Shown here: positions 16,496-32,024 of the stretch, one piece after another
How the letters are laid out: each line of letters starts with the position of its first letter
How positions within the stretch are numbered: the stretch's first letter is position 1
IMG/VR virus record: IMGVR_UViG_3300037294_000399
Location: 1-64,000 of that record
Direction: 5' to 3' (one strand)
Origin: a virus
Length of the DNA: 64,000 nt
Position numbers and translations under genes: made by a program
The notes under the pieces: generated by a model
What the model was told of the DNA's origin: nothing
What the model saw: only the letters and a program-made list of their open reading frames with translations
Databases searched by the model: none

Positions 16496-17233
16496 TTAAA
16501 GCATAGAAATTGCTTTGTTGATATCCTTTAACATTTGAATACAACGATTAGTCAAATAATCAGTATTTTCATCATTCATATAAGCAGTAACGTTTATTGG
16601 TTTATTTGTAAATCTAATAAATTCGTTTTCATGTGACATCCTAGAAAGAACACTAAAATATTCGGATTTAAAAATAAATTCATCTGGGTTGGTGTTGTAG
16701 GCCAAAATAAAAGGAAGTCTTAAATCTTCACGTATAACATCATTTAATAATTTCATCAATCCATCTTCAGTGTCAATATAGTCAATTTTGGCAACAATTT
16801 CGTAAAAACTTTCATAACTACCAAAATTAGCTGCTGACTCATAAGCCATAGACCAACTTTGAACTAAACTATTCGCTTTATAAACATAACGATTACCCTT
16901 TTCAAGTTCAATGGCTTGCTTGTTTTTGATAAAATAAGACATTGGAATCATTGTTCCTCTATAAGTTGTAATATTTTCTGGGACCAATATGTCTGGGTAT
17001 TGATTCATACAACCTTTTAGGTTTGATAAAGCAGAAATAAATTCCTGTGTAGTTTCTTCACCATACATATTATCGGTAAAATCTTTTATTTGCTCTATAT
17101 AATCATTTTCAGTTGGCGTATTACGCTCAGCTCCACCAAATTGGTCACCAAATAATTCATGACCGAAATTCTTAACACAAGATGTTACTTCGTTTTCATT
17201 TACGATGGATTCATATAACTTATAGATTTTCAT
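16496..17233 (-). CDS. Possible R-S-E class ADP-ribosyltransferase
   Basis: TYRG ... QSWS ... ENE in the expected order. Confidence 0.45.
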   Translation of the reverse strand: MKIYKLYESIVNENEVTSCVKNFGHELFGDQFGGAERNTPTENDYIEQIKDFTDNMYGEETTQEFISALSNLKGCMNQYPDILVPENITTYRGTMIPMSYFIKNKQAIELEKGNRYVYKANSLVQSWSMAYESAANFGSYESFYEIVAKIDYIDTEDGLMKLLNDVIREDLRLPFILAYNTNPDEFIFKSEYFSVLSRMSHENEFIRFTNKPINVTAYMNDENTDYLTNRCIQMLKDINKAISML

Positions 17234-17302
17234 AGTGTTACAGTTTATTTACTATAAATATCGAAAAAACTTGTAAAAAAACTTGACAAATCAAAATAAA
17301 TG

Positions 17303-17342
17303 TAGTATCTTTGTGTAACTTTTAGAAATAGAGGTATATTTA
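17303..17342 (+). promoter_or_regulatory. tRNA-operon promoter cassette, copy 1
   Basis: tagtatctttgtgtaacttttagaaatagaggtatattta; TAnnTTTG plus TATTTAT motif; near-identical at 18284 and 31824. Confidence 0.8.
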
Positions 17343-17364
17343 TAGACAAATAAAAACAACAACA

Positions 17365-17442
17365 ATGAAAACTTTTAACAACGCAGTAGTCCTTTTAGTC
17401 TTATGTTTACTAGTAGTAGACAGGATGGGTTATGCATGTTAA
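17365..17442 (+). CDS. Attenuator leader peptide 1 (Val/Leu/Cys): MKTFNNAVVLLVLCLLVVDRMGYAC
   Basis: 11 consecutive V/L/C codons upstream of a terminator and Cys/Leu/Val/Leu tRNAs. Confidence 0.85.
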   Translation: MKTFNNAVVLLVLCLLVVDRMGYAC

Positions 17443-17469
17443 TTAAGTAGTCAAATACGATAACAACTG

Positions 17470-17500
17470 AAACCCATCTAAGCAATTAGGTGGGTTTTTT
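17470..17500 (+). terminator. Attenuator terminator 1
   Basis: aacccatctaa-GCAA-ttaggtgggtt + T run; alternative pairing with gatgggtt 17424-17431. Confidence 0.85.
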
Positions 17501-17507
17501 GCATTAT

Positions 17508-17582
17508 GCACGTGTGGTCGAGTGGTCAAAGGCAACGGATTGCAAATCCGTAAAACCGCTGGTTCGAATCCAGCCACGTGTT
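17508..17582 (+). tRNA. tRNA-Cys(GCA)
   Basis: Cloverleaf; anticodon arm acgga-ttGCAaa-tccgt. Confidence 0.92.
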
Positions 17583-17598
17583 CAAAATAGAAAATAAG

Positions 17599-17883
17599 AT
17601 GGATACAAATGAAGTAAAAAAAGACTTATATAAGTCAAAGAACATGGCTAAATTTAGTCATTATGTAAGTGGGAATTGATACTACACAGTTGAGTTAGCT
17701 ATCGGAACATATCAATTCCCGATATTAACGGTAGAAGAATCAGAATTATATGATTCTGAAGGTAGTGTTAAATTATCCTCAGATTTAGGAACAACAACCT
17801 TTGAGGTAGAAATGAAAGGGTTAGACCTTAACAGATGGATAACAAAAGCCATAGAAAATGAAACATTTATAAAGATAGGGTAA
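17599..17883 (+). pseudogene. Hypothetical gene with internal TGA at 17677
   Basis: Open frame on both sides of a single stop. Confidence 0.55.
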
Positions 17884-17895
17884 AACCTATCATAA

Positions 17896-17979
17896 GCGGA
17901 TATGGGGGAATTGGTAGACCCGCTGGTCTTAGAAACCAGTGCTGAAATAAGCGTGCGAGTTCGAGTCTCGCTATCCGTA
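17896..17979 (+). tRNA. tRNA-Leu(TAG)
   Basis: ctggt-ctTAGaa-accag, long variable arm. Confidence 0.93.
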
Positions 17980-17985
17980 CAACAT

Positions 17986-18063
17986 GCATCTGTAACTCAG
18001 TTGGTTTAGAGTGCTTCCTTTACACGGAAGAAGTCGGGGGTTCGAGTCCCTCCAGATGCACCA
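17986..18063 (+). tRNA. tRNA-Val(TAC)
   Basis: cttcc-ttTACac-ggaag, encoded CCA. Confidence 0.95.
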
Positions 18064-18064
18064 A

Positions 18065-18145
18065 AAGATAGTTACTGCAAACAAAAAGGTTAACAATTTA
18101 TTCGCAAAATAAATCTAAGTGGTTCAATCCCACAAAACTATCTTG
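18065..18145 (+). ncRNA. tRNA-fragment element (anticodon-like GCA arm plus T-arm in a closing stem)
   Basis: aagatagtt/aactatctt stem; atttat-tcGCAaa-ataaat; gtgg-ttcaatc-ccac. Confidence 0.55.
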
Positions 18146-18150
18146 AATTT

Positions 18151-18235
18151 GGCCGAGTGGTGGAACGGTATACACACTAGACTTAAAATCTAGCGGTCCG
18201 AAAGGGCCTTGCGGGTTCGAATCCCGCCTCGGCTA
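18151..18235 (+). tRNA. tRNA-Leu(TAA)
   Basis: ctaga-ctTAAaa-tctag, long variable arm. Confidence 0.93.
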
Positions 18236-18283
18236 CAATAAAATAAAAAAAACACAAAAAGACTTGCTTTTTTAAAATAAATG

Positions 18284-18323
18284 TAGTACCTTTGTGTAAC
18301 TTTTAGAAATAAGAGTATATTTA
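18284..18323 (+). promoter_or_regulatory. tRNA-operon promoter cassette, copy 2
   Basis: tagtacctttgtgtaacttttagaaataagagtatattta. Confidence 0.8.
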
Positions 18324-18364
18324 TTAAACAACAAAGGGGAAACCCACATTAAAAAATAGAAACA

Positions 18365-18454
18365 ATGAAAAAAAATAACAACATATTTGATTTTGCATTT
18401 TTTGCTGCCGAGGCTGATGAAAGCTTGGGAAGGTCATCTATTGTCATAAGTTAA
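18365..18454 (+). CDS. Attenuator leader peptide 2 (Phe/Asp/Ala/Glu): MKKNNNIFDFAFFAAEADESLGRSSIVIS
   Basis: 12 consecutive F/D/A/E codons upstream of a terminator and Phe/Glu/Asp/Ala tRNAs. Confidence 0.85.
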   Translation: MKKNNNIFDFAFFAAEADESLGRSSIVIS

Positions 18455-18477
18455 TGTAAATCATTAAACGAATCGAT

Positions 18478-18512
18478 AAAAGCTCTGACCTAAAAATCAG
18501 AGCTTTTTTTTT
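18478..18512 (+). terminator. Attenuator terminator 2
   Basis: aaaagctctga...tcagagctttt + T run; alternative pairing aggtca 18431-18436 with tgacct 18486-18491. Confidence 0.8.
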
Positions 18513-18596
18513 GTTTAAAAAATAAATAAAAAAAAAATGTAAAAAGTTTGGATGTTTAAAAAATATTTCATACCTTTGCAGAGTCAAAATAGACAA

Positions 18597-18623
18597 GGTA
18601 CCTTAGCTCAGTTGGTAGAGCAA
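18597..18623 (+). pseudogene. 5' half of interrupted tRNA-Phe
   Basis: ggtaccttagctcagttggtagagcaa, matching the intact tRNA-Phe at 21416. Confidence 0.8.
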
Positions 18624-18635
18624 GTTTAAAATAAT

Positions 18636-18709
18636 GGACTTCTGGTGTAAATGGTGTGTCATGCTAGTCTGAAGAACTAGAGGTTTCGGTTCGAGTCCGA
18701 GGGAGTCCA
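18636..18709 (+). tRNA. tRNA-Phe(GAA), divergent copy carried by the insertion
   Basis: ctagt-ctGAAga-actag; acceptor ggacttc/ggagtcc. Confidence 0.8.
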
Positions 18710-18789
18710 CAGATAACTTTTTGTAGAACATAATACAAAGTTTTTAGAGCTTTTAGATATAATTAGATATTTATATAAAAACGTAAATT

Positions 18790-19281
18790 ATGTTATTAGA
18801 AGAATTAGTAAAAAAGGGGTTGAATAATACTGAAATAGGTGAAATTTTAGGTATACATAGAACAACAGTTGCAAAGCAAATAAAAAAAGCTGGCATTGAA
18901 CGTGAAATATCAGATACTTGTGTTATTTGTAAAAGTAAAACAAAATCAACTAGAAAAAGATGTGATAGTTGTAACACTAAAATTAGAAGATACAGGGCAA
19001 AAAAAGCGAGTGTTCAATATTTGGGCGGTAAATGTAAAAAATGTGGTTGGAGTGGAAATTTAGCTGGTTATGATTTTCACCATCTAGACCCAGAAAAAAA
19101 AGATTTTAAACCAAGTGCTAATGAATTAGCAAATAAATCTTGGATTAAAGTAAAAGAGGAATTAGATAAATGTGAATTATTATGTGCAATATGTCATAGA
19201 TTAGAACATAATGATTATGAAAATAAAATATTTTTAAAAATAGCTGATTCAGAAAGTGATGATTTAATTTTTAAAAATTAA
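18790..19281 (+). CDS. HNH endonuclease with N-terminal HTH
   Basis: LGGKCKKCG...DFHHLDP...KCELLCAICH. Confidence 0.88.
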   Translation: MLLEELVKKGLNNTEIGEILGIHRTTVAKQIKKAGIEREISDTCVICKSKTKSTRKRCDSCNTKIRRYRAKKASVQYLGGKCKKCGWSGNLAGYDFHHLDPEKKDFKPSANELANKSWIKVKEELDKCELLCAICHRLEHNDYENKIFLKIADSESDDLIFKN

Positions 19282-19293
19282 AACAAGATGCGG

Positions 19294-19323
19294 GTGTCAC
19301 TGGTTCGAATCCAGTAGGTACCA
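19294..19323 (+). pseudogene. 3' half of interrupted tRNA-Phe
   Basis: gtgtcactggttcgaatccagtaggtacca; aggtacc pairs with ggtacct at 18597. Confidence 0.8.
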
Positions 19324-19407
19324 CAAAAGACAAATAGACCACACCTAGGGTTAGTGATTTAATTAAAGGGTCTCATTCAGTATACAAGTCTGAAATTTGT
19401 CTTTCAT

Positions 19408-19482
19408 GCTGCCATCGTCTAACGGTTAGGACGCTAGGTTTTCAACCTAGAAATCGGAGTTCGATTCTCCGTGGCAGCACCA
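19408..19482 (+). tRNA. tRNA-Glu(TTC)
   Basis: ctagg-ttTTCaa-cctag, CCA. Confidence 0.95.
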
Positions 19483-19576
19483 AGGTTCGATATATGTGTT
19501 GGTTTACGAGATTTGCACATAAAAAGGTTTAACAAAGCGAAAGCTACAGCTTTTTAAGAACCAAAATTATTACTAT

Positions 19577-19648
19577 GGCCCGTTCGTCTAACGGTTAGGA
19601 CGCTAGGTTTTCAACCTAGTAACAGGGGTTCGATTCCCCTACGGGCTA
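19577..19648 (+). tRNA. tRNA-Glu(TTC)
   Basis: ctagg-ttTTCaa-cctag. Confidence 0.93.
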
Positions 19649-19718
19649 CTATCAAGCAAGTGCTGCAACATTTGTAAGAGAAACCAATGAACAGATTGCA
19701 GTTTGGTAAGTTGGTTTT

Positions 19719-19792
19719 TGGGTGTTCGTCTAATTGGTTAAGACGCTGGGCGTTGAGGCTCGGAAATATGGGTTCAAGTCCCATACACTCTA
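19719..19792 (+). tRNA. Glu-like tRNA body with atypical 8-nt anticodon loop
   Basis: Glu-type D arm tcgtctaattggttaagacg; ctggg-cgttgagg-ctcgg; normal T arm. Confidence 0.55.
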
Positions 19793-19800
19793 CTAAAATA

Positions 19801-19875
19801 CGGATTAGAGGTCAAATGGTTAAGATGTCACCCTGTCACGGTGTTCGGAGCGGGTTCGACTCCCGTCTATTCCGC
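19801..19875 (+). tRNA. tRNA-Asp(GTC), divergent
   Basis: cacc-ctGTCac-ggtg; imperfect acceptor. Confidence 0.75.
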
Positions 19876-19932
19876 TAGCAGAAATGGTTGTTAACACCGC
19901 AAACTGAAAATGAAAGAAAGTTAACATAAACT

Positions 19933-20005
19933 GGGGATGTAGCTCAACTGGCTGAGCGTTACCTTTGCAAGGTAAAGGATGTGGGTTCGAATCTCATCAT
20001 CTCCA
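19933..20005 (+). tRNA. tRNA-Ala(TGC)
   Basis: ttacc-ttTGCaa-ggtaa; G3:U70. Confidence 0.93.
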
Positions 20006-20164
20006 CGAAACATCTAGTGAGGTAAGACTGGTAGGCTACTAATCCTAATGCTCGAAAGAGTACTGGAGAGGCTAACGAAAGAACCGAACGAGTAGTTAGT
20101 TGAAGGGATTTGCTTGAAAAATAAGTTTGGTGTAGAGCAAATTGTGTAATTAGATGTTTTAATT

Positions 20165-20241
20165 GGTCTGTTAGTAGAGTTGGTTACAATATCGCACTGT
20201 CACTGCGAAGGTCACGGGTTCGAATCCCGTACAGACCGCCA
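20165..20241 (+). tRNA. tRNA-Asp(GTC)
   Basis: tcgca-ctGTCac-tgcga, GCCA end. Confidence 0.95.
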
Positions 20242-20402
20242 GATAGCCCTCTGATGGTGCACCATCATGGAACGAAGACAGAGATTACAGATGTAGGTTG
20301 AAATAAAAAATACTTTCGGGTACACTTACATGTTGGCGTGGACGCTCTCCGAATCGTAGGTCGGCACAGTTGTAACTCTGGGGGTATTACAAAAGTTACA
20401 TT

Positions 20403-20476
20403 GGGGGATTAGCTCAGCTGGCTAGAGCACTTGCCTTGCACGCAAGGGGTCATCGGTTCGACTCCGATATCCTCCA
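20403..20476 (+). tRNA. tRNA-Ala(TGC)
   Basis: cttgc-ctTGCac-gcaag; G3:U70. Confidence 0.95.
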
Positions 20477-20479
20477 CAA

Positions 20480-20608
20480 CGATGTTGTTGGTGAGTATTC
20501 CGTTCGATTCGGATTTGGTCTTGGTGGCTGTGTGGTTCAAGTCCACGTTAAATAATAGGCAACACAATAGTAGGCATCCGCTCAAGGGTTCGACTCCCTT
20601 AACATCGA
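20480..20608 (+). ncRNA. tRNA-like RNA with three T-loop hairpins
   Basis: Acceptor-like cgatgtt/aacatcg; tccg-ttcgatt-cgga, gtgg-ttcaagt-ccac, aaggg-ttcgact-ccctt. Confidence 0.6.
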
Positions 20609-20613
20609 CAAAT

Positions 20614-20686
20614 TGGGGGATACTTTAATTGGTTAGAAGGCCACCTAGACGGGTGGTAGCGTAGGGTTCGAAACCCTCTCCCTCAA
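20614..20686 (+). tRNA. tRNA-like gene with non-canonical anticodon loop (undetermined)
   Basis: Acceptor tggggga/tccctca and T arm present; ccacc-tagacg-ggtgg loop is not 7 nt. Confidence 0.55.
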
Positions 20687-21114
20687 CTAAAAATAAAAAT
20701 ATTGTTTTACTACTTGATAGTGTAAAATAAATGTAGTACATTTGTATATGAAAAGAAAAATTTTACAATATTTAGCTGATTATATTATTAAACAACTAAA
20801 AACATCTATTGGTGATGATAGAGCATTTAATTTTTACTTAGAAATGGGTATGTGGTTAGATTTTTACGCTTTAAATAGTGATATTGAACTAAATTAAAAA
20901 AAAACAGAAAAATACTTGCAAGTTTAAAAATTAGTTAGTACCTTTGTAATATAAATCGAGAGGGTGTTTGAGAGTAGTAGCTATTAGGAAAGTTCCTCCT
21001 CTTTATCGAAAGATAAATGAAACTTTGTACTGGCGGTGGTATCAAACACAAGGTCGTAAATCTCTGGGGCAGATATGTCACGGAACAAGTCCTCGGTGTG
21101 TCACTGGGGCAAAT

Positions 21115-21191
21115 GGGAGAATAGTTCAGTTGGTAGATAGTCGCTGTCTTCGGAGGGCGAAAGGTCGTTGGTTCGAGTCCAGCTTCTTCCA
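21115..21191 (+). ncRNA. Anticodon-less tRNA mimic with Ala identity
   Basis: Acceptor gggagaa/ttcttcc (G3:U70, A73); D and T arms normal; anticodon arm capped by cUUCGg. Confidence 0.65.
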
Positions 21192-21415
21192 CAATTTAAG
21201 TAGCGTTGCATATAGACCTAGGAAGCTTATGTTGATTTCTATTTAGAGTTGCCGACAACTCAAGTTCGGGGGTTTACGGTTGTACCTTAACAACTAGGTT
21301 AGAGTTCGTTAACCTTCTTCCAAGAGCAAATGACGAATTGGTTTAGTAACATTTATCCACTTCTAGAGAAAAAAAGTTACTAGGGTAAACACTTGGAATA
21401 TGTTTACCCATTAAA

Positions 21416-21488
21416 GGTACCGTAGCTCAGTTGGTAGAGCAATGGACTGAAAATCCATGTGTCACTGGTTCGAATCCAGTCGGTACCA
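21416..21488 (+). tRNA. tRNA-Phe(GAA)
   Basis: atgga-ctGAAaa-tccat. Confidence 0.95.
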
Positions 21489-21496
21489 CAAACATT

Positions 21497-21620
21497 CGGA
21501 AGGTGGCCAAATTGGTAAAGGCGGCAGTAAGTAAAAAAGGTTAACTTGTTTAAAAGTTATGTTCAGCAGAAAAACTACATTGGGAACTGCTATTTGTTGG
21601 TTCGAGTCCAGCCCTTCCGA
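21497..21620 (+). tRNA. tRNA-Pro(TGG)-like gene with a 50-nt insertion in the anticodon arm
   Basis: Acceptor cggaagg/ccttccg; stem gcagt/actgc; removing 21529-21578 leaves loop atTGGga. Confidence 0.65.
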
Positions 21621-21635
21621 CTAAAATAAAAGAGA

Positions 21636-21989
21636 GTGAAGAATGTTTTAATTATTGTTTTATTGACTGTTACATTATTTAGTTGTAAACCAGAAACTAG
21701 TAACGTTGAGGTAAAAGAAGTTCCATTAGATTCAATTTATATTGAAGTGGAAGGAAAACCAGAAACTAGTAACGTTGAAGTAAAAGAAGTTAGGTATTGG
21801 TCTTCTTCTGAAACTAAATTACCAAGAGGTGTGGTTTATAGTTACGATTGTTCAAATAGAAATAAACCGAACCAAAAAATAAAAGATAATTATGTTACGA
21901 TTAAACGAACCAATGGTTATCTTACAATAGTTAAAGATATCGATGAAGATTTATTTTTAAATATTGAAATAGATGATGTAATTGATTAA
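21636..21989 (+). CDS. Lipoprotein with an internal 12-aa duplication
   Basis: Lipobox LFSC; KPETSNVEVKEV twice. Confidence 0.7.
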   Translation: MKNVLIIVLLTVTLFSCKPETSNVEVKEVPLDSIYIEVEGKPETSNVEVKEVRYWSSSETKLPRGVVYSYDCSNRNKPNQKIKDNYVTIKRTNGYLTIVKDIDEDLFLNIEIDDVID

Positions 21990-22180
21990 CAGAAGAGTGA
22001 GCAGCTATAGCCAAGTTGGAACCAGAACCAGCGTTTAGGTCAAAAATACTGGGCTTGCGACTTCTAAATAAAGTCAGAGTGCCCTCAACACTATAATAAA
22101 AGGGGTTTGATAAACCATGTGAGAAATTGCATGAGTTATTACTAGACATTGAAAGCTTATTTCAGCAACAAAAAATCTAT

Positions 22181-22260
22181 AGCCTGTTAAGCTCGTGATA
22201 TGGGTTCGAATCCCATACTGTCCGATATTACTGGGCGGTTAGCTTAATGGTTAGAGCACG
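22181..22260 (+). tRNA. Circularly permuted tRNA-Asn(GTT)
   Basis: 3' part (anticodon loop ctGTTaa, T arm, actgtcc) at 22181-22225 precedes 5' part (gggcggt, D arm, cg) at 22232-22260; joining gives the stem cgagc/gctcg. Confidence 0.75.
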
Positions 22261-22291
22261 AAAAGAAAAAAGTTAAGCTTGTTGTCTAAAT

Positions 22292-22409
22292 ATGAGGGTG
22301 GCTTATTGGAAGAGCACTCCCCCTAAATACGTGTGTAAGGTTCGATTCCTTTTTGGTTTGGAAGCATGGCGTATCGGGAGTTGCGTGGGTTCGAATCCCA
22401 CCCCTTGTA
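22292..22409 (+). ncRNA. tRNA-like RNA with a structured insertion replacing the anticodon loop
   Basis: Acceptor atgaggg/cccttgt; stem ctccc/gggag encloses about 54 nt containing an extra T-loop hairpin aagg-ttcgatt-cctt. Confidence 0.55.
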
Positions 22410-22726
22410 CTAGAACAAACTCAAGTAGTTTAGAGGTGGCTCCCTTTCCCACATTTGGGATATGTAGAAAAAGAGCTGTGGCTGACCACGGGCATCTAAT
22501 TGGGTTAAATACTCAATGATACAGGGGGCGAAGTTAGACGAAAGGTTTCTAGAATCGAGGTATGGGTATTCCCTTGAGTCCCTGTTCTTCTAGTTTTTTG
22601 TTTGTTTTAGTAAAAACAAACTGGTGGACAGTCAGATTGTTAATTCCAATCGACCCAAAAAAAATGACGTTATCATTTGGTAGTGTCATTTTTTATTTGT
22701 ACCTTTGTAATCTAAAAATAAAAGAA

Positions 22727-23200
22727 ATGACATTAAATTATCAATTAGGATTGTATGTTGGTGAATATATAGTAGCATTGCGTTTGCCAACGTTAAGTAC
22801 TGACATGTTAAAAACTAGAACAATCATTGATGTGTCACCAGAAGAAACAGCTGAGTGGGAAGTGTTGGATGCCCAATATGGTCCAATATATATTAGCGAT
22901 AAAGACCCAGATAAAGAAGCTAAAGAAGAAGCTAGAACTAGGATTTTTTATGAAAATCGTAAATGGTATCATAAGTTAGAAGAAAAATATCTACCAGAAA
23001 CTATAAAAGTACAAGTTCCTAGAGTTGTACCAACTAACATGAAGGAATTTACCAAAGGAATTGAGGATACTTTATGGGATAGTGATTTATCACATTATAG
23101 AATTAATGAAGGTTATTTCGAGCAAACATCTAAGTGTGCATGGTGTTCTTATATTATTTTAACAAGACACATAGAAAAAATTCCAGAAAAATTTGCATAA
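22727..23200 (+). CDS. Hypothetical protein
   Basis: ATG downstream of TACCTTTG promoter. Confidence 0.7.
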   Translation: MTLNYQLGLYVGEYIVALRLPTLSTDMLKTRTIIDVSPEETAEWEVLDAQYGPIYISDKDPDKEAKEEARTRIFYENRKWYHKLEEKYLPETIKVQVPRVVPTNMKEFTKGIEDTLWDSDLSHYRINEGYFEQTSKCAWCSYIILTRHIEKIPEKFA

Positions 23201-23259
23201 TTTAAATATTATTCATACCTTTGTACTCAACAAGTAAAAAAAACTTAAAAAAATAAAAA

Positions 23260-23976
23260 ATGGGATTAAAAGATTTATTTATCGTTAGTGATGAAAAACC
23301 TATCGATAAACCAGTACAAGAACCTGTGAAACAATCTGCTCCAAGCACGACAAAGTTTCCTAGTTCTACACCTAAAACGGAAGAAACGACTTCAAATCCG
23401 TTTAGTTCATTCGGTTTTGGTAGTTCACCAACACCTACTTATCAAGCTGCAACTGTAAGCAATGAAGTATTAGCTAAAACCTTAGAAATGTATGAAGCTG
23501 GTTTTGATTCCCTTAACCAACCAGGATACGACTTCTATGAGTTTTTCAAAACTGTAATGGCTGGTGGTGCTGACAACCCAGCAATCTACGGTATGGCTTT
23601 CGGTATGGGTAGTGCAATGGATAAAACTATTACCAAAGACAAATTATTGATGCAGTCTGAATTTTATATTACTGAAATAAACAAAGTTTACAATGACTAT
23701 GTTGCTAAAGGTAATGGTAAAAGACAAGAAGTTATCAACCAAAAGAATCATGAAAACGAATCATTATTAGGTGAATTGAATTTAATGAGACAACAATTAG
23801 AACAACTTCAAGTTCAAATTTCTGACCGTGAAAACAAACTATCTGTAATTGATAGCAAATATGGTCCAATCTTAAATGAAGTTGAAACTAAAATTACCGC
23901 TAATGATTTAGCAAAACAAAAGATAGTTAGTTCTATCGAACAAGTTAAAAACGGAATTATTAATAATTTAAAATAA
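23260..23976 (+). CDS. Coiled-coil protein (transporter-associated operon)
   Basis: LNQPGYDFYEF motif, C-terminal heptads. Confidence 0.75.
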   Translation: MGLKDLFIVSDEKPIDKPVQEPVKQSAPSTTKFPSSTPKTEETTSNPFSSFGFGSSPTPTYQAATVSNEVLAKTLEMYEAGFDSLNQPGYDFYEFFKTVMAGGADNPAIYGMAFGMGSAMDKTITKDKLLMQSEFYITEINKVYNDYVAKGNGKRQEVINQKNHENESLLGELNLMRQQLEQLQVQISDRENKLSVIDSKYGPILNEVETKITANDLAKQKIVSSIEQVKNGIINNLK

Positions 23977-23987
23977 AAAAAAGAGAT

Positions 23988-25118
23988 ATGCAAACTCAAA
24001 CTCAAACAAGGACATCTACTTTAAATGCAAATTTATCGGAGTTGCCAATTTTAAAACACTTTAACCAAAACGAAATCTCAACCAAAGTTGATACGTTTAG
24101 AAAAGGTGAGAAAAACATGTTCTGGTTCTTTAAATTAGCTGCACTTATTGGTGTTGGTTATTTAACTTGGACATATGTGTTACCGCCAGTATTCCAAGCA
24201 ATTGGACAAATGTTAGCAATTGCGGCTACCGCAGTAATGATTGTTGCGGGTGTTATTATGGCCCCAGTAATTGTTAAAGGTATTCGTTTACTTACTAGAG
24301 CGATTCACAAATCACTTATTAAGTATGACCCATTTGCTCAGTTAGAAATTGAAAGACAAAAAATGCTTGTGAATCAAACAACATTCAGAGTTGCTAAAGG
24401 GAACATTGTTCAATTAAAACAAGAAATGGAAATTGAAGCTGATAGGTCACAAAAAGAAGCTGAAAGTGGTCAAACAAGAGTAATCGCTTTGCAAGGTAAA
24501 GCTGAGAAGTTAAAATTTTCCATGGATGAAATGATTAAATCACAAGGTGTTGCTGCTAAAGGTGAAGATGAGTATGTTAACATGGCTGCTGAATTACAAA
24601 AAGTACTTGCAGAAGCACAACGTGTTGCTAACAAATACAACCAATCAAAAAACTTCGTTCAAAAGTACGGTACTCGTGCTAATGTAATGAAAAAAATGGG
24701 TCAAAAATTAACCCTTGTTGAAACTGCGATGGATATTAAAATCCAAGACTTTGATGCAACTATTGATATGTTGAAAAAAGACTACGAGTTCGGTCAAAAA
24801 TCTAATGCTGCAACAACTGCCGCTAAGTCTGCAATGGGCTTCACAAAAGGCTGGGAGTTTGATTATGCCTTGGATGTTGTTACATCTACGATTGCTGCTG
24901 ATATCGCAATCACGGCTGGTAACTTGAAAGATATTGAAAGTATTACAAGCAACTACACGTTAGATTCTGACGAGTTGTATGCTAACTTGAATGCAGTTGC
25001 TGATAAAATTAAAATTGGTACTGATATCATTCCAGATGCTAGTCAGTATTCAAACCCAGAGTACACTTTGTCATCAAGTGACAAATTAAAATCTGGTGGA
25101 TTTGGTGACATGTTCTAA
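23988..25118 (+). CDS. Membrane-anchored coiled-coil protein (PspA-like architecture)
   Basis: Two TM helices followed by long coiled coil. Confidence 0.7.
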   Translation: MQTQTQTRTSTLNANLSELPILKHFNQNEISTKVDTFRKGEKNMFWFFKLAALIGVGYLTWTYVLPPVFQAIGQMLAIAATAVMIVAGVIMAPVIVKGIRLLTRAIHKSLIKYDPFAQLEIERQKMLVNQTTFRVAKGNIVQLKQEMEIEADRSQKEAESGQTRVIALQGKAEKLKFSMDEMIKSQGVAAKGEDEYVNMAAELQKVLAEAQRVANKYNQSKNFVQKYGTRANVMKKMGQKLTLVETAMDIKIQDFDATIDMLKKDYEFGQKSNAATTAAKSAMGFTKGWEFDYALDVVTSTIAADIAITAGNLKDIESITSNYTLDSDELYANLNAVADKIKIGTDIIPDASQYSNPEYTLSSSDKLKSGGFGDMF

Positions 25119-25384
25119 GAAATATTAGATAAAAAACTGTTCGAGTAGCTATTGCGTCTTATCAACCGATTGTAAAGTAGTGGACAAAATATATACGGGA
25201 TTGCTGAGCCTAAATGAGTAAGAAGGAAGTCATAAGAGTTTTAAACCGATAAGGGTAGTTTCTCCGATGGCGAAAAAAAAAAAAGAAAAAAAAAATGACA
25301 AAATGTTTGGTAGATTAAAAAAGAATATGTACCTTTGTCATGTTAAATTAAATAAAGTAAATTTTATAAACTAAAAATAAACAA

Positions 25385-27199
25385 ATGGGAAGAATTTTAA
25401 AACAAGCTAAATTAACAACTTTAGCTGAAAGTGTAATCGTAGCGTTAGGTGTAATCTTAATCTGTGGAATCGTTTATATGGTATCTCCTGGGTTACGAGT
25501 TGAAGTTTCAAAACAATTAACTGGTCTAGAATTAAATAGTGACGAGTTAAACAATGTGACGAGTGGTGCTAAATTACCGTTACCATCTACACAACCATCT
25601 ACCGCTGTTGCGAATCAAGGACTTATTCGTATTGCAGAATATGCTTGGAATGGTAACTCTGGTATGATTGTAGCAAATGGTGGACCACGTACAACACAAG
25701 GGTCTCTTATGGAAGCTGCTGGTGTTAACCTTGAAATCGTAAGACAAGATATGGTTGGTGGGTTACGTGATATGCAAATAAAATTCGTTGAAGAATATGA
25801 TAAAGGTTTTGCTTATCCAAAATCAGACAAATCAGCTTGGGGTGTTAGTATAATGGGTGACGGTGTTCCGTTCTATATTACTACAACACAAAAAGCGTTA
25901 GATGAAAAGTTTGGTAAAAACAAATATCATGTACAAGTTATCGGTGCTTACGGATTATCTTATGGTGAGGATAAATTAATTGGTCCAAAAATTTGGAAAG
26001 AAAACCCACAATCAATGAGAGGTGCTGTAGTTTCTTCTGTAATTGGTGATGGTGACTGGGTTGTTGCGTGTAACTATGCGTTTGCTAATAAAGTACCAGT
26101 AAATCCAGACCCAACAACTTACGATGCAGATGCCTTGAATTTTTTCCCATCACAAGACGATGACTACATCAACTCAGTTAAAGAATTAATCAAATCTCAA
26201 AAAACAGGGTTTATAGTTCCTTTGAAAGAAGTTAAAGATGGTAAATTAACTGGTAAGACAGTAAATAGAAAAATTGATGGTGCAACTACTTGGACTCCTG
26301 GTGATAAGATGGCGTTTGATGCGTTGACTGGGTTTACCGATGTAGTTTCAACTAAAGAGTTCGTTAACCAAATGGCTACTACTTTAGTAGTGATTAAAGA
26401 GTGGGCTTTGCAACATGAAAAAGAAGTTGTGTCTATCTTAAAACAAACTTATACTGCAACTAATCAAATTAAGTTATATGATGAATGGGCTGTAAAAGCT
26501 TCTGAAGCCGTAGCTAAAACTTATGACTTTGAAACACCAGCTTATTGGTATAAAATGTTTAAAGGTCAAAAAGGTACTAAAGATGGTTTAGATTATAATA
26601 TTGGTGGTACACGTGTCTTCAATTATGCTGATGCTATGCAATATTACGGAATTACTGATGGTAACAACCGATACAAAGCAGTTTACAATCAAATCTCTAC
26701 TTATTTGACTGACTTGAACCCAATGGGTTTCAATGAATCAAACCCTAATGGTGTAGTAGCTTATGAAGATGCAGTTAACTTATATTTCTTAAAAAGTGTT
26801 ACCGATGTTGCGGTAGGTAAAGCTGAAAAAATTAACTACGATGGTAATAAGACTAAAGTATTAGCTAGTGGTCAATGGAACATAAACTTTGCAACTGCAA
26901 GTACGTCAATTCAAGGTTCGGATAAAGACTTAGAGGCCATATACAACTTATTAATGCAAGCTGAACAAGCCAAATTGAAAATTGTTGGTCATACCGATAA
27001 CGTAGGTGATTCTGGTTCTAATCTAACATTATCAAAAGGTCGTGCTAATTCAGTTGTTGAGTGCTTAATTAATAGAGGTATTTCTAAAAATCGTTTCCAA
27101 TTGGTTGATGGTAAAGGTGATGCTTCTCCAATTGCGACTAATGCAACTCCAGCTGGTAAAGCTAAGAACAGACGTGTGGAAATCACATTGTTAGACTAA
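25385..27199 (+). CDS. ABC substrate-binding protein (SsuA/TauA-like) with C-terminal OmpA domain
   Basis: N-terminal TM; GHTDNVG...NLTLSKGRA...NRRVEI. Confidence 0.85.
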   Translation: MGRILKQAKLTTLAESVIVALGVILICGIVYMVSPGLRVEVSKQLTGLELNSDELNNVTSGAKLPLPSTQPSTAVANQGLIRIAEYAWNGNSGMIVANGGPRTTQGSLMEAAGVNLEIVRQDMVGGLRDMQIKFVEEYDKGFAYPKSDKSAWGVSIMGDGVPFYITTTQKALDEKFGKNKYHVQVIGAYGLSYGEDKLIGPKIWKENPQSMRGAVVSSVIGDGDWVVACNYAFANKVPVNPDPTTYDADALNFFPSQDDDYINSVKELIKSQKTGFIVPLKEVKDGKLTGKTVNRKIDGATTWTPGDKMAFDALTGFTDVVSTKEFVNQMATTLVVIKEWALQHEKEVVSILKQTYTATNQIKLYDEWAVKASEAVAKTYDFETPAYWYKMFKGQKGTKDGLDYNIGGTRVFNYADAMQYYGITDGNNRYKAVYNQISTYLTDLNPMGFNESNPNGVVAYEDAVNLYFLKSVTDVAVGKAEKINYDGNKTKVLASGQWNINFATASTSIQGSDKDLEAIYNLLMQAEQAKLKIVGHTDNVGDSGSNLTLSKGRANSVVECLINRGISKNRFQLVDGKGDASPIATNATPAGKAKNRRVEITLLD

Positions 27200-27312
27200 G
27201 AATAAATATAAATTAAAAATCCTCAGAGAAATCTGGGGATTTTTTTTGTAAAAAGATTTGGAAGTTCGAATTAAATTTCGTACCTTTGTCTTATAAATTT
27301 TAAAACAATAAA

Positions 27313-28083
27313 ATGAAAAGATTATTTAAACCGTTTGAGCGACTTAAAGGTTCTAGTACAACAACAATACTAGTTTCTTGGTTAGTTATCTTATTTGTGT
27401 TTTGGGGTGTAAATAGCTTAGGAACAACAAACATGTTCCCAACACCAAAACAAGTACTACATGGATTACAAAATTTATGGTGGGAAGGTCTCATTGTTCA
27501 TTTGGGTAGTTCAATTGCGTTGTGTGGTCAAGCAGTATTTATTTCAATAGTGATTTCATTACTATTTGCTTATACGTCAGCAATTCCATTTTTTAAACCA
27601 GTAGGTACCTTTATATCTAAGCTTAGATATTTGCCATTGACGGGTATTGCGTTTTATTTAGCTATAATAATTCAAGATGCTAGAAATCTTCAAGTATGGG
27701 TTCTTGTAGTGTTTATGACAACATTCTTAACTACTGGTCTTATGCAAATGATTAAAGATATACCAGAAGAAGAATTTGACCACGCTAGAACACTTGGGTG
27801 TAACAGATGGGAAACACTTTGGGAAGTTGTAATTAAAGGTCGTATTGACTACGTATTTGAGTTAGTAAGGCAAAACTTAGCTATTGTGTGGATGATGCTT
27901 GTAACTGTTGAATCTATTCTTGTAGCTGCTGGTGGGTTAGGGTTCCTAATTAAAAACAATGATAAGTTAGGTGATGCTGGTAAAGTAATTGCTTTGCAAA
28001 TAATCATAGTAGTGGTAGGGTTGTCTTTGGACTTCATCATCACAAAATTGAGAAAATTAATCTTTAGATATTCAAACTATTAA
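27313..28083 (+). CDS. ABC transporter permease (SsuC/TauC-like)
   Basis: FPTP, RYLP, EAA-like loop ARTLG, GLGFLI. Confidence 0.88.
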   Translation: MKRLFKPFERLKGSSTTTILVSWLVILFVFWGVNSLGTTNMFPTPKQVLHGLQNLWWEGLIVHLGSSIALCGQAVFISIVISLLFAYTSAIPFFKPVGTFISKLRYLPLTGIAFYLAIIIQDARNLQVWVLVVFMTTFLTTGLMQMIKDIPEEEFDHARTLGCNRWETLWEVVIKGRIDYVFELVRQNLAIVWMMLVTVESILVAAGGLGFLIKNNDKLGDAGKVIALQIIIVVVGLSLDFIITKLRKLIFRYSNY

Positions 28084-28086
28084 TAT

Positions 28087-28908
28087 ATGAGTTATAAAGC
28101 AGAACAAACGTTATTATACGTTAAGGACCTAAGTGCTGGTTATGATGGGAAGATTATCCTTAAAGATATATCATTTGAGGAAAAAGACATCGTTAGAGAA
28201 GGGGTAGAATCGACAGGGCAAATAATTGCATTTATTGGTCGCTCTGGTCGTGGTAAATCTACATTGTTTAAAACACTTACTGGTTTATTAAAGCCACTAA
28301 CTGGACAAATGTTGATATCAGATATGTCAACAGATGAAATGGATGACGCTAAAAAATTGTCTGAGGGTGATATAGGTTTTGTGGACCAAAAGTATACGCT
28401 TTTCCGTCACAAAACAATCATACAGATTTGTGAATATGCGTTGCGTAAATCAACACTTACAAAAGAGGAAAAGAAAGTGCTTATCACAGAGTACTTGACT
28501 GATTGGGGTCTTGAAGAACACAAAGATAAATATTCATGTGAGTTATCTGGTGGTCAAAGACAAAGAACAGCAATCATTGAGCAAATGCTTTCGTCTAAAC
28601 GTTTTATGATTCTAGACGAACCATTTTCTGGTTTAGATGTTGGGAATATTGAGAAAGTAAAAGAGTCTTTCAATCGAATTAGCGCTACCAACGAATATAA
28701 TACGATTATTTTTTCAACACATGATTTACGTCTTGCTGCTGAATTGGCTGATAGTATTTACATCGTTGGTTTTCCAGAAGGCACTACTGATTATTCTACT
28801 ATCGTTGGTCACTACGACTTAAAAAAACTAGGATTAGCTTGGCAACCATATGGTGATGGACATACAAGGTTAGTTGAAGAAATGAAACAATTGTTATTGC
28901 ATTCATAA
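28087..28908 (+). CDS. ABC transporter ATPase
   Basis: GRSGRGKST, LSGGQRQR, ILDEPF, STHD. Confidence 0.93.
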   Translation: MSYKAEQTLLYVKDLSAGYDGKIILKDISFEEKDIVREGVESTGQIIAFIGRSGRGKSTLFKTLTGLLKPLTGQMLISDMSTDEMDDAKKLSEGDIGFVDQKYTLFRHKTIIQICEYALRKSTLTKEEKKVLITEYLTDWGLEEHKDKYSCELSGGQRQRTAIIEQMLSSKRFMILDEPFSGLDVGNIEKVKESFNRISATNEYNTIIFSTHDLRLAAELADSIYIVGFPEGTTDYSTIVGHYDLKKLGLAWQPYGDGHTRLVEEMKQLLLHS

Positions 28909-29025
28909 TGAATAAAGAATAAAAAACCATATATTACATCTAAAAAACACATTGAATATATTTATAGTATGTGTTAATGTTAAATTGAGTACCAAAACAT
29001 AATATTAACCTTAAACAAAGATAAA

Positions 29026-29190
29026 ATGAAAAAAATGATTCTTGTTCTTGTTGTGATAGCGTCTTTAACAGCATGTACTGGTAAAGCTAAAACACAAGAT
29101 ACTACTGCTACGGATTCGACAGCGGTAACAATTGATTCAGTTGCTACTAGTGTAGATACTACAACAGTAGATACAACTGCAACTAAATAA
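29026..29190 (+). CDS. Small Thr/Asp-rich lipoprotein
   Basis: MKKMILVLVVIASLTAC lipobox; DTT/DST/DSV repeats. Confidence 0.75.
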   Translation: MKKMILVLVVIASLTACTGKAKTQDTTATDSTAVTIDSVATSVDTTTVDTTATK

Positions 29191-29333
29191 TTATGAGTGG
29201 GGCATTAATTTGCCCCTCTTATACTAGGAAAAATAAGACCCATCATGTGTTTAAAAGCACTAGGTCACGACTAAATATAATACTATGGACAGTGAGAGGA
29301 ACAGTAACGAGAAAAGTGATGGCGACAGTCTGC

Positions 29334-30251: not shown

Positions 30252-30359
30252 ATGTTTCTGTATAATAAATATCTAGGTTTTCGATAAAAACCGTTTCTAA
30301 CACAAAATAGTTTCGAAATATTTGCATTTTAATTAAATTTTTAGTACCTTTGCTTATAA

Positions 30360-30875
30360 ATGAAAAAATTAGAAATATATAGTAAATCTCATTCAATCGA
30401 AGACTGGGAGAAAATAATAAGATTAAAATTCTACGATATACCATTCAGAACTAGAGGAGATGATATTTATAAAATTTTAGGTACTGATGATAAGGAAAAA
30501 AATATAATAAATGAAGCATCACTATTAATTTATAGTAAAGATATTGGTGTATTATCTTTTGAAGATGCTTGTAATAAATTGCAAATTTCAAATGTAATTC
30601 AAAATATTCCCAATGAGTTTGTAGCTGGATATAAGTTAAAGATTATAATCAAAGCACTTAACGAAGGTTGGGTACCAGATTGGAATAACTCTAATCAACT
30701 TAAGTATTTTAACTATTTTAATATGAAGGGTGGTTTTTCGTATTTTTATACTTATTATTACGCTACTAATACGATTGTTCCCTCGGCCCTTTTATTTAAG
30801 AACTTTGATTTAGCTCTTTACTGTGGTAAACAATTTGAATATTTATTTGAAGAATATTATAAACAAATATTATAA
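30360..30875 (+). CDS. Hypothetical phage protein
   Basis: ALNEGWVPDWNN motif. Confidence 0.65.
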   Translation: MKKLEIYSKSHSIEDWEKIIRLKFYDIPFRTRGDDIYKILGTDDKEKNIINEASLLIYSKDIGVLSFEDACNKLQISNVIQNIPNEFVAGYKLKIIIKALNEGWVPDWNNSNQLKYFNYFNMKGGFSYFYTYYYATNTIVPSALLFKNFDLALYCGKQFEYLFEEYYKQIL

Positions 30876-30926
30876 TCTTTATATTTATATTAAAATAAGA
30901 TAGTGTAAATTTAATTATGGATAAAA

Positions 30927-31815: not shown

Positions 31816-31823
31816 AATAAAAG

Positions 31824-31863
31824 TAGTACCTTTGTGTAACTTTTAGAAATAGAGGTATATTTA
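31824..31863 (+). promoter_or_regulatory. tRNA-operon promoter cassette, copy 3
   Basis: tagtacctttgtgtaacttttagaaatagaggtatattta. Confidence 0.8.
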
Positions 31864-31897
31864 TTAGAAAAGAGGTAAAACTCACAAACAAAAAATT

Positions 31898-31999: not shown

Positions 32000-32024
32000 A
32001 ATTATAAACGTATAATTTTTACAC

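What the first reader, a model, noticed from the sequence alone, without database searches (positions are those of the whole stretch)
18597..19323. tRNA-Phe split at its anticodon arm by an HNH cassette carrying a different tRNA-Phe
The 5' half (18597-18623) and 3' half (19294-19323) match the intact tRNA-Phe at 21416, with a compensatory acceptor change (ggtacct/aggtacc versus ggtaccg/cggtacc); the anticodon arm is gone. Between them lie a sequence-unrelated tRNA-Phe(GAA) and an HNH gene. The insertion destroys a tRNA and supplies the same anticodon, which also keeps the match to leader 2.
Basis: partly seen in the sequence, partly recalled or inferred. Interest (0 to 1): 0.75.

Follow-up and report, generated by a model that had tools for sequence, protein, structure and literature searches.

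The report
Homing nuclease cassette splits phage tRNA-Phe
In the tRNA gene array of a large uncultured phage, a selfish DNA-cutting-enzyme (HNH) gene that travels with its own phenylalanine tRNA has landed in the middle of a resident phenylalanine tRNA gene, leaving two dead halves, while a close relative still has the gene whole.

Summary
Window 18597-18623 and 19294-19323 are the two ends of a tRNA-Phe gene. Between them lie an unrelated but well-formed tRNA-Phe(GAA) (18636-18710) and an intact HTH/zinc-ribbon/HNH ORF (18790-19281).

- **Uninterrupted allele:** the close relative L013 has the same gene whole at the same place, with identical halves and about 97% identical flanks.
- **Corrected boundary:** the anticodon arm is not wholly gone. 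19285-19293 are positions 35-43 of a different tRNA-Phe allele. The insertion is therefore 18624-19284 (661 bp) and replaces only positions 28-34.
- **Not an intron:** there is no ribozyme and no room for one, and the exons cannot make a tRNA.
- **The HNH family:** it lives in phage tRNA arrays. The window's clade sits next to tRNA-Phe genes (12 of 23 close loci against 3 of 99 distant ones). Other loci carry orphan tRNA-Phe stumps broken at the same place. Distant members sit in true group I introns of tRNAs.

The best reading is a free-standing homing endonuclease that targets the tRNA-Phe anticodon-arm region and carries a substitute tRNA. Cleavage, immunity and tRNA function are inferred, not shown. 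An intact paralogue (21416) weakens the need for a substitute.

This scan has already noted HNH cassettes splitting tRNA-Gly, tRNA-Pro and tRNA-Leu in other phages. The cargo tRNA and the uninterrupted allele are what this case adds.

The parts
18547..18578 (+). Promoter-like motif (TTTG, 20 nt, TACCTTTG; Bacteroidota type) just upstream of the split tRNA. It would drive the 5' stump, the cargo tRNA and read-through into the HNH gene.
   Evidence: 16 such motifs on the + strand and 19 on both strands, against a mean of about 4 (both strands) in shuffled sequence; 14 of the + strand motifs end in TACCTTTG. The motif is conserved in L013. Function is inferred.
18597..18623 (+). 5' stump of the resident tRNA-Phe: acceptor 5' strand, D arm, positions 1-27.
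   Evidence: 27/27 identical to the intact L013 orthologue. 26/27 to the paralogue at 21416.
18624..18635 (+). Left junction: a 12-nt AT-rich spacer between the stump and the cargo tRNA.
   Evidence: Absent from L013.
18636..18710 (+). Cargo tRNA-Phe(GAA), of foreign sequence type.
   Evidence: ARAGORN cloverleaf: 7-bp acceptor stem, perfect 5-bp anticodon stem, A73, weak D stem. Rfam tRNA 50.8 bits. 45/78 identical to the canonical gene. Absent from the 20.7 kb of L013.
18766..18781 (+). Phage-type promoter-like motif (GATATTTAT...) a few bases before the HNH start codon.
   Evidence: the 9-mer occurs 13 times in the window, 11 of them within about 45 nt upstream of an ATG. It also stands before the HNH genes of L017, L019, L031 and L167.
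18790..19281 (+). Intact ORF of 163 aa: N-terminal helix-turn-helix, zinc ribbon, HNH nuclease domain. Putative free-standing homing endonuclease.
   Evidence: phrog_2255 HNH endonuclease, E 7e-24. Weak HTH_38/HTH_23 matches at residues 3-33. 99 homologues, up to 80% identical, with invariant Cys and His residues. AF2 pLDDT 90.5. Best structural matches are HNH domains, Z 3.3-4.1.
19285..19293 (+). Nine bases equal to positions 35-43 of a different tRNA-Phe allele: either a co-converted donor flank or a relic of the original arm.
   Evidence: Exact match to the tRNA-Phe genes of L014 (4003-4078) and L182. 4 of 9 differ from L013, while the next 34 nt have no differences and the background is 1.7%.
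19294..19323 (+). 3' stump of the resident tRNA-Phe: variable loop, T arm, acceptor 3' strand, discriminator.
   Evidence: 30/30 identical to the L013 orthologue. 29/30 to the paralogue.
21416..21489 (+). Intact paralogous canonical tRNA-Phe(GAA). It makes the split copy dispensable and is a possible self-target.
   Evidence: Rfam 77.5 bits. Identical to the L013 orthologue of the split gene at positions 8-65.

Best explanation
This is a free-standing HNH homing-endonuclease cassette sitting inside a phage tRNA-Phe gene. It is not an intron.

**Shown by comparison**
- A 661-bp block (spacer, complete foreign-type tRNA-Phe, phage promoter motif, HNH ORF) occupies the place of positions 28-34 of a canonical tRNA-Phe gene.
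- The close relative L013 has the uninterrupted gene at the same site.
- The nine bases next to the right end of the block belong to another tRNA-Phe allele.
- The window's HNH belongs to a clade that sits beside or inside tRNA-Phe genes in many unrelated phage contigs. Several of those contigs carry orphan tRNA-Phe stumps broken in the same region.

**Inferred mechanism**
1. During co-infection the nuclease cuts or nicks the DNA of canonical tRNA-Phe genes around the junction of the D arm and the anticodon arm.
2. The break is repaired from the cassette-bearing genome. This copies in the nuclease gene, its neighbouring tRNA-Phe and a short stretch of donor flank.
3. The interrupted target can no longer be cut.
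4. The cargo tRNA differs throughout the D arm and anticodon stem, so it is immune. It keeps a GAA-anticodon tRNA expressed from the old tRNA promoter.
5. The two stumps are dead remnants. They also serve as homology arms for further homing.
For: **Uninterrupted allele.** L013 has stumps identical at 27/27 and 30/30 and flanks 95-98% identical.

**More distant relatives.** L014 and L015 have intact tRNA-Phe genes, and no HNH homologue was found in their records, which are incomplete.

**Right junction.** 19285-19293 equals positions 35-43 of another allele. 4 of 9 bases differ from L013, against 0 of the next 34 and a 1.7% background.

**The ORF looks functional.** It is intact and all family-invariant Cys and His residues are present.

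**Family context.**
- Of 23 non-redundant loci with at least 110 bits to the window HNH, 12 have tRNA-Phe as the nearest neighbour within 300 bp. Of 99 weaker loci, 3 do (Fisher p = 3.5e-8). Phe makes up 24 of 421 tRNAs in these loci.
- 15 of 16 Phe-adjacent HNHs fall in one 35-row clade with support 99, and that clade holds the window's HNH.
- L028, L030 and L031 of that clade also carry aberrant or split tRNA-Phe genes that ARAGORN missed.

**Stumps elsewhere.**
- 5' stumps end at positions 23-27 in L017/L185, L018, L006 and L035.
- In L006 and L031 the 3' pieces begin at positions 33-35. L038 and L039 carry shorter 3' fragments that begin further downstream.

**A second event at the same site.** In L017/L185 a 63% identical HNH (73% at the DNA level) sits after the identical 5' stump, downstream of the homologous leader region. 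There it is followed by a complete variant tRNA-Phe.

**Intron-borne relatives.** Distant family members lie in genuine group I introns in tRNA anticodon loops (L172, 62 bits). This fits a family of tRNA-gene homing enzymes.

**Precedent.** T4 SegB is a homing endonuclease in the tRNA cluster whose 27-bp site contains a conserved tRNA motif (PMC2330249).
Against: - **No activity data.** Cleavage, its position and immunity are all inferred.
- **A possible self-target.** The same genome keeps a canonical tRNA-Phe at 21416 that is identical at positions 8-65 to the presumed target. Either the enzyme needs context outside the tRNA, or it cuts its own genome and is tolerated, or the target is not what I infer.
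- **Compensation is not required.** That same paralogue means the cargo tRNA is not needed to replace the lost gene.
- **Polarity is unresolved.** A related HNH sits at the same site in the more distant L017 lineage, and the anticodon arm of L013 equals that of its own paralogue. L013 may therefore have lost the cassette by gene conversion from the paralogue rather than never having had it.
- **No donor found.** No contig with the same tRNA-plus-HNH unit in another context was recovered.
- **The cargo tRNA is imperfect.** Its D stem is weak.
- **The position of the extra tRNA varies.** In L017, L006 and L035 the odd tRNA-Phe lies outside the stump rather than inside the cassette, so cargo status is not uniform.
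Confidence: 0.7

Rival explanations
1. An ORF-bearing intron (group I or another kind) is spliced out to give a working tRNA-Phe.
For: Distant members of the same HNH family do sit in real group I introns in tRNA anticodon loops (L172, 62 bits; L047, 38 bits). [quoted passage not shown]
Against: There is no Intron_gpI match in 16500-34000 at E <= 1. Outside the ORF the insert has only 166 + 3 nt, and 75 of those are a tRNA, so a ribozyme core cannot fit. Joining the two stumps leaves positions 28-34 missing: no 5' strand of the anticodon stem and no complete anticodon.
Confidence: 0.03
2. The split is an accidental illegitimate recombination in a recombination-prone tRNA array. The HNH gene and its tRNA are passengers, and the nuclease plays no part in choosing the site.
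For: The left junction shows no clear homology. Phage tRNA arrays are full of duplications and pseudo-tRNAs. No cleavage data exist.
Against: The same kind of break, in the same region of tRNA-Phe and next to related HNH genes, recurs in several unrelated contigs. Adjacency to tRNA-Phe is specific to one clade. An orthologous site in L017 is occupied by a related HNH.
Confidence: 0.12
3. The element is the same, but the history is reversed. The cassette is old at this site, and L013 regained an intact gene when its paralogous tRNA-Phe served as template for gene conversion across the two stumps. This is homing-endonuclease loss, not a never-invaded allele.
For: A 63% identical HNH occupies the same position, after an identical 5' stump, in the more distant L017/L185 lineage. 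The L013 gene carries an anticodon arm identical to its own paralogue, whereas the nine surviving bases in the window are of another type, one also seen in L014's paralogue and in L182.
Against: Base 27 of the window's stump is the L013-type A, not the C expected of the other allele. Independent homing into the same site is what such elements do. The cassettes in the window and in L017 differ in content and order.
Confidence: 0.3

Closest known systems
Phage T4/T6 SegB, a free-standing GIY-YIG homing endonuclease in the tRNA gene cluster (PMC2330249; PMC13096335)
   Same: Both are free-standing nuclease genes lodged among phage tRNA genes. The SegB recognition site contains a conserved tRNA motif. 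SegB homing carries neighbouring tRNA genes into the recipient, and SegB homologues are statistically associated with tRNAs.
   Different: The nuclease fold is different (HNH, not GIY-YIG). SegB lies between tRNA genes, whereas this one lies inside one and destroys it. SegB shows no isotype preference, whereas this clade is tied to tRNA-Phe. SegB activity is demonstrated; this enzyme's is not.
HNH-encoding group I introns in tRNA anticodon loops (here L172 in tRNA-Asn; tRNA group I introns mapped in bioRxiv 10.1101/2020.01.27.920355)
   Same: The HNH family is the same, the host gene is of the same kind, and the region is the same (the anticodon loop).
   Different: The window has no ribozyme and no way to restore the tRNA by splicing. 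Function is kept, if at all, by a second tRNA carried in the DNA insert.
Free-standing homing endonucleases that split protein-coding genes (HNH genes splitting a ribonucleotide reductase and an RNA polymerase subunit gene in Pseudomonas phages, PMC5418858; 'fractured genes', PMC2677866)
   Same: A homing endonuclease gene is inserted inside a conserved gene without an intron or intein, leaving the gene in two pieces.
   Different: In those cases the two protein pieces are still made, and in some cases reassembled. Here the RNA gene is dead and a separate complete copy of another sequence type comes with the insert.
tRNA-targeting integrative elements that restore the tRNA gene they interrupt (general knowledge)
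   Same: A mobile element lands in a tRNA gene and supplies sequence that keeps that tRNA function available.
   Different: Those use an integrase and replace only the 3' end with a near-identical copy. Here there is no integrase, the break is in the anticodon arm, and the replacement is a whole, unrelated tRNA gene.

Membership tests
HNH (beta-beta-alpha-metal) endonuclease superfamily | Significant match to curated HNH profiles | tested here: met
   PHROGs: phrog_2255 (E 7e-24), phrog_35854 and phrog_3106 (about 4e-18), all annotated HNH endonuclease. Pfam gave no HNH hit for the window protein itself at E <= 0.01, but several homologues carry PF01844.
HNH (beta-beta-alpha-metal) endonuclease superfamily | Catalytic His and metal-binding His/Cys residues conserved | tested here: met
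   In 26 sequences H97, H98, H136, H140 and the Cys pairs C82/C85 and C132/C135 are invariant, and all are present in the window ORF.
HNH (beta-beta-alpha-metal) endonuclease superfamily | HNH fold | tested here: inconclusive
   The model is confident (pLDDT 90.5). The best structural matches are HNH domains (Cap5, Cas9, Gme nicking endonuclease, McrA), but only at Z 3.3-4.1. Foldseek found nothing at E <= 0.001.
Free-standing homing endonuclease gene | Presence/absence polymorphism at one site between close relatives | tested here: met
   L013 has the uninterrupted gene with near-identical flanks.
Free-standing homing endonuclease gene | Not inside a self-splicing intron or intein | tested here: met
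   No group I intron match and no space for a ribozyme.
Free-standing homing endonuclease gene | Co-conversion of flanking target sequence | tested here: inconclusive
   The nine bases next to the insert are of another allele: 4 of 9 differ from L013, then 0 of 34. A relic of the original allele explains this equally well.
Free-standing homing endonuclease gene | Site-specific cleavage of the allele that lacks the gene, and biased inheritance in mixed infection | not testable with these tools
   Needs purified protein and a cross. The phage is uncultured.
Group I intron with homing endonuclease ORF | Ribozyme core, and exons that join into a complete tRNA | tested here: not met
   No Intron_gpI match at E <= 1. 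Positions 28-34 are missing from the joined stumps.
SegB-type (GIY-YIG) tRNA-cluster homing endonuclease | GIY-YIG catalytic domain | tested here: not met
   The protein matches HNH families only. A weak GIY-YIG/NUMOD3 ORF is present in L013 at a different site.
tRNA (for 18636-18710) | Covariance-model score above the Rfam gathering score, and a cloverleaf with anticodon GAA | tested here: met
   50.8 bits against 29. The ARAGORN cloverleaf has A73 but a weak D stem.
tRNA (for 18636-18710) | Processed, CCA-tailed and charged with phenylalanine | not testable with these tools
   No RNA data are available.

The most novel reading that the evidence does not exclude
A clade of HNH homing endonucleases is specialised on the DNA of tRNA-Phe genes and moves as a unit with its own cleavage-immune tRNA-Phe. 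Each invasion kills the resident allele and installs a different one, which amounts to gene replacement by homing for a non-coding RNA gene. If so, such elements would help explain why large phages carry double, divergent sets of tRNAs. They could also spread tRNA variants that resist host anticodon nucleases.
Probability: 0.35. Interest if true: 0.7.

Novelty: new variant of a known kind. Interest (0 to 1): 0.55.

Why it matters
Homing endonucleases are known to live among phage tRNA genes, and SegB shows they can recognise tRNA-gene motifs. This case gives a clean natural before-and-after pair for something slightly different: a nuclease gene that lands inside a tRNA gene without an intron and brings a whole substitute tRNA of the same anticodon.

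- **Testable enzymology.** The case defines a target region (positions 23-35 of tRNA-Phe).
- **Isotype specificity.** The nuclease clade is linked to one tRNA isotype.
- **Array evolution.** It offers a concrete mechanism for the turnover, duplication and pseudogene litter seen in jumbo-phage tRNA arrays.
- **Annotation.** Orphan tRNA halves next to HNH genes should be read as homing scars, not as split or permuted functional tRNAs.

Tried and rejected
- **Group I intron:** an Rfam scan of 16500-34000 at E <= 1 found none.
- **Cargo tRNA elsewhere:** a degenerate pattern for the cargo tRNA in IMG/VR gave 0 matches.
- **Cultured relatives:** a DNA search of GenBank phages with the 4.2-kb array found only generic tRNA matches and no close relative. 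A protein search found homologues at no more than about 47% identity, annotated only as HNH endonuclease, again inside tRNA arrays.
- **Solved structures:** a sequence search matched only the N-terminal HTH (resolvase-like) and, weakly, McrA.
- **TGGACT microhomology:** the start of the cargo tRNA shares TGGACT with the lost anticodon stem. I considered this as a junction microhomology and dropped it, because 11 nt separate it from the break.
- **Pairing of the insert ends:** as a processing helix this gives only 4-5 AT pairs in the window, so I rejected it. L031 does have such a helix.
- **Tree building:** the careful and quick tree builds timed out. The tree cited is FastTree.
- **Literature:** full-text searches found no paper describing a homing endonuclease cassette with a replacement tRNA inside a tRNA gene. 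The library is incomplete.

Full report
**Setting.** The window is the first 64 kb of a 96-kb IMG/VR virus record judged 27% complete, so it is a fragment of a very large phage. Positions 17.5-21.5 kb and 32-33.3 kb hold dense tRNA arrays, all on the + strand. Many tRNAs occur twice in divergent versions.

**The observation.** Window 18597-18623 and 19294-19323 reproduce the two ends of the intact tRNA-Phe(GAA) at 21416-21489, at 26/27 and 29/30. The only two differences are at positions 7 and 66, which pair with each other. Two features lie between the ends.
- A tRNA-Phe(GAA) at 18636-18710 is called by both ARAGORN and Rfam (50.8 bits). It has a full acceptor stem, a perfect anticodon stem, A73 and a weak D stem. 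It is 45/78 identical to the canonical gene, no more than it is to tRNAs of other isotypes.
- A 163-aa ORF at 18790-19281 matches HNH endonuclease families (phrog_2255, E 7e-24).

**An uninterrupted allele exists.** A protein just upstream of the array led to four syntenic contigs.
- The closest is L013, with 94% protein identity. It has the same tRNA order. At the homologous place it carries an intact tRNA-Phe whose ends are 27/27 and 30/30 identical to the window's stumps, including the T7:A66 pair.
- The flanks are 98% identical over the 600 nt to the left and 95% over the 130 nt to the right.
- The more distant relatives L014 and L015 also have intact tRNA-Phe genes followed by tRNA-Glu. 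No homologue of this HNH was found in their records of 233 kb and 137 kb, which are 64% and 39% complete.

**Corrected boundary.**
- Together with the following variable loop they match exactly positions 35-48 of tRNA-Phe genes of related phages that have a different anticodon stem (L014 4003-4078 and L182/L183).
- Against L013 these nine bases differ at 4 positions. The next 34 bases differ at none, and the background divergence is 1.7%.
- The inserted block is therefore 18624-19284 (661 bp), and only positions 28-34 of the tRNA are missing.
- The nine bases have two possible origins. They may be a short tract copied from a donor in which the cassette already sat in a tRNA-Phe anticodon loop. 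Alternatively they may be a relic of the gene's original arm.

**Not an intron.** Rfam finds no group I intron here at E <= 1. Outside the ORF the insert has only 166 + 3 nt, of which 75 are the tRNA. The stumps cannot be joined into a tRNA.

**The protein.** It has an N-terminal helix-turn-helix (weak HTH_38/HTH_23 matches; resolvase-type HTH by PDB sequence search). A four-cysteine ribbon and an HNH domain follow.
- In 26 aligned homologues the His and Cys residues of the HNH motif are invariant, and all are present in the window ORF.
- The AlphaFold model is confident (pLDDT 90.5).
- Its best structural matches are HNH domains, but the scores are weak (Z 3.3-4.1).

**The family lives on tRNA genes.** The family has 99 detectable homologues in the large protein collection and several hundred loci in IMG/VR and JGI contigs.
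- I reduced 160 fetched loci to 122 non-redundant ones. Among the 23 closest to the window protein, 12 have an ARAGORN-called tRNA-Phe as nearest neighbour within 300 bp. Among the other 99, 3 do (Fisher p = 3.5e-8). Phe is only 24 of the 421 tRNAs in these loci.
- On a FastTree phylogeny, 15 of the 16 Phe-adjacent genes fall in one clade of 35 (support 99), and that clade contains the window's gene.
- Three members of that clade scored as having no tRNA-Phe in fact carry aberrant or interrupted tRNA-Phe genes (L028, L030, L031).
- More distant members sit next to Met, Ile, Pro, Asn, Arg or Val tRNAs. Some lie in genuine group I introns within tRNA anticodon loops (L172, 62 bits, tRNA-Asn; L047, 38 bits).
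- In cultured phages, homologues of about 35% identity are annotated only as HNH endonuclease and again sit flush against tRNAs. Examples are Acinetobacter phage Aci05 and Klebsiella phage DP.

**The same scar elsewhere.** Orphan tRNA-Phe pieces next to related HNH genes recur.
- 5' stumps end right after the D arm, at positions 23-27, in L017/L185, L018, L006 and L035.
- In L006 and L031 the 3' pieces begin at positions 33-35. L038 and L039 carry shorter 3' fragments that begin further downstream.
- In most of these loci a complete tRNA-Phe of variant sequence stands directly before or after the nuclease gene.
- L017/L185 is especially telling. It shares the window's upstream leader region (72% over 186 nt) and an identical 5' stump. 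It has a 63% identical HNH (73% at the DNA level) at the same position, but the HNH is followed by a complete variant tRNA-Phe instead of a 3' stump.

**Expression signals.**
- A Bacteroidota-type promoter motif stands at 18547-18578, in front of the stump. It is one of 16 on the + strand (19 on both strands, against about 4 in shuffled sequence). Fourteen of the + strand motifs end in TACCTTTG.
- A second motif, GATATTTAT, occurs 13 times in the window, 11 of them within about 45 nt upstream of an ATG. One copy stands before the HNH gene, and the motif also precedes the HNH genes of L017, L019, L031 and L167.
- The cargo tRNA is therefore placed to be transcribed from the old tRNA promoter. 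This is inference.

**Most likely mechanism.**
- *Shown:* insertion polymorphism, an intact nuclease gene, clade-level linkage to tRNA-Phe, recurrent breaks in one region, and a junction-adjacent tract of another allele.
- *Inferred:* the enzyme cuts or nicks canonical tRNA-Phe DNA near the junction of the D arm and the anticodon arm. Repair from a cassette-bearing genome copies in the nuclease gene with its own tRNA-Phe. The disrupted site and the divergent cargo tRNA are immune. The cargo tRNA keeps GAA decoding available.

**Difficulties.**
- *Self-target.* The genome retains a canonical tRNA-Phe at 21416, identical at positions 8-65 to the presumed target. Either recognition needs context outside the tRNA, or self-cutting is tolerated. 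SegB does act on its own genome (PMC13096335).
- *Redundancy.* That same paralogue means replacement is not strictly required.
- *Polarity.* This is open. A related HNH sits at the same site in L017, and the anticodon arm of L013 equals that of its own paralogue. L013 may therefore have lost the cassette through gene conversion from the paralogue.
- *No donor.* No donor contig was found, and the closest homologues could not be placed on contigs.

**Comparison with what is known.**
- *SegB of T4/T6.* This is the nearest characterised system: a homing endonuclease in the tRNA cluster whose site includes a conserved tRNA motif and which carries tRNA genes with it (PMC2330249). Its homologues are tRNA-associated without isotype preference (PMC13096335).
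- *How this case differs.* The fold is different. The gene sits inside a tRNA gene, it has an isotype-linked clade, and it carries a whole substitute tRNA.
- *Intron-borne relatives.* These are a known kind (bioRxiv 10.1101/2020.01.27.920355).
- *Earlier notes from this scan.* They describe HNH cassettes splitting tRNA-Gly and tRNA-Pro, and a 27-base tRNA-Leu stump, in other phages. I did not re-test these, but they agree.
- *Classification.* I class this as a new variant of a known kind.

Noticed in passing
L013:7663-8331 (minus strand); window 19483-19576: L013 carries a 213-222 aa ORF with weak SegE-type GIY-YIG and NUMOD3 matches between the two tRNA-Glu genes. The window has only 94 bp there. 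The two close relatives therefore each hold a different nuclease gene at a different spot in the same array.
   Followed up: partly
window 18365-18454, terminator 18478-18507: A 29-aa ORF rich in Phe, Asp, Ala and Glu, followed by a strong terminator hairpin, lies upstream of the split tRNA. Its nucleotide sequence is identical in L013. It is conserved as a peptide (about 22/29) in L017, where the DNA is only 72% identical. The attenuation idea was not tested.
   Followed up: partly
window, 16 sites on the + strand, e.g. 3894, 9738, 13761, 18547, 22676: A promoter-like motif (TTTG, 20 nt, TACCTTTG) recurs 16 times on the + strand, 14 of them with the near-invariant second element TACCTTTG. There are 19 on both strands, against about 4 in shuffles. 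The motif is of the Bacteroidota type and hints at the host phylum.
   Followed up: partly
window, 13 sites, e.g. 4712, 7131, 17262(-), 18766, 42525, 58844: A second motif, GATATTTAT followed by an A/T-rich run, occurs 13 times, 11 of them within about 45 nt upstream of an ATG. It is probably a phage-specific promoter and is shared with HNH genes in other contigs.
   Followed up: partly
L172:2364-2990: A tRNA-Asn(GTT) is interrupted between anticodon positions 35 and 36 by a group I intron (Rfam 62 bits) that encodes a distant member of this HNH family.
   Followed up: partly
L031:2400-3010: An HNH gene lies inside a tRNA-Phe-like gene at the anticodon loop. The two ends of the insert are complementary over about 14 nt, so the RNA ends could be brought together. 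No group I match was found.
   Followed up: no
L019:2978-3053; L027:2546-2621: The tRNA-Phe genes directly downstream of the HNH have odd anticodon loops: an extra base and no canonical CTGAA. ARAGORN reads a four-base anticodon in L027. This could be target-site immunity or decay.
   Followed up: no
L030:2310-2420; L028:2270-2345: Upstream of the HNH genes closest to the window's subclade are tRNA-Phe-like genes that ARAGORN misses. One has a 19-nt insertion in the D loop and one has a defective anticodon stem.
   Followed up: no
L013:4578-4651 (minus strand): The second canonical tRNA-Phe of L013 has a G in place of C25, which breaks a D-stem pair. Otherwise it equals window 21416-21489.
   Followed up: no
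window 22292-22409, 32704-32777, 32981-33037: Rfam calls further tRNA-like genes here that ARAGORN does not. The first is 118 nt long, so it carries a long insertion.
   Followed up: no
L013:5129-6024 (minus strand); window 20688-21114: L013 has two extra ORFs (183 and 114 aa) between two odd tRNAs, where the window has about 430 bp. This is another indel in the array.
   Followed up: no
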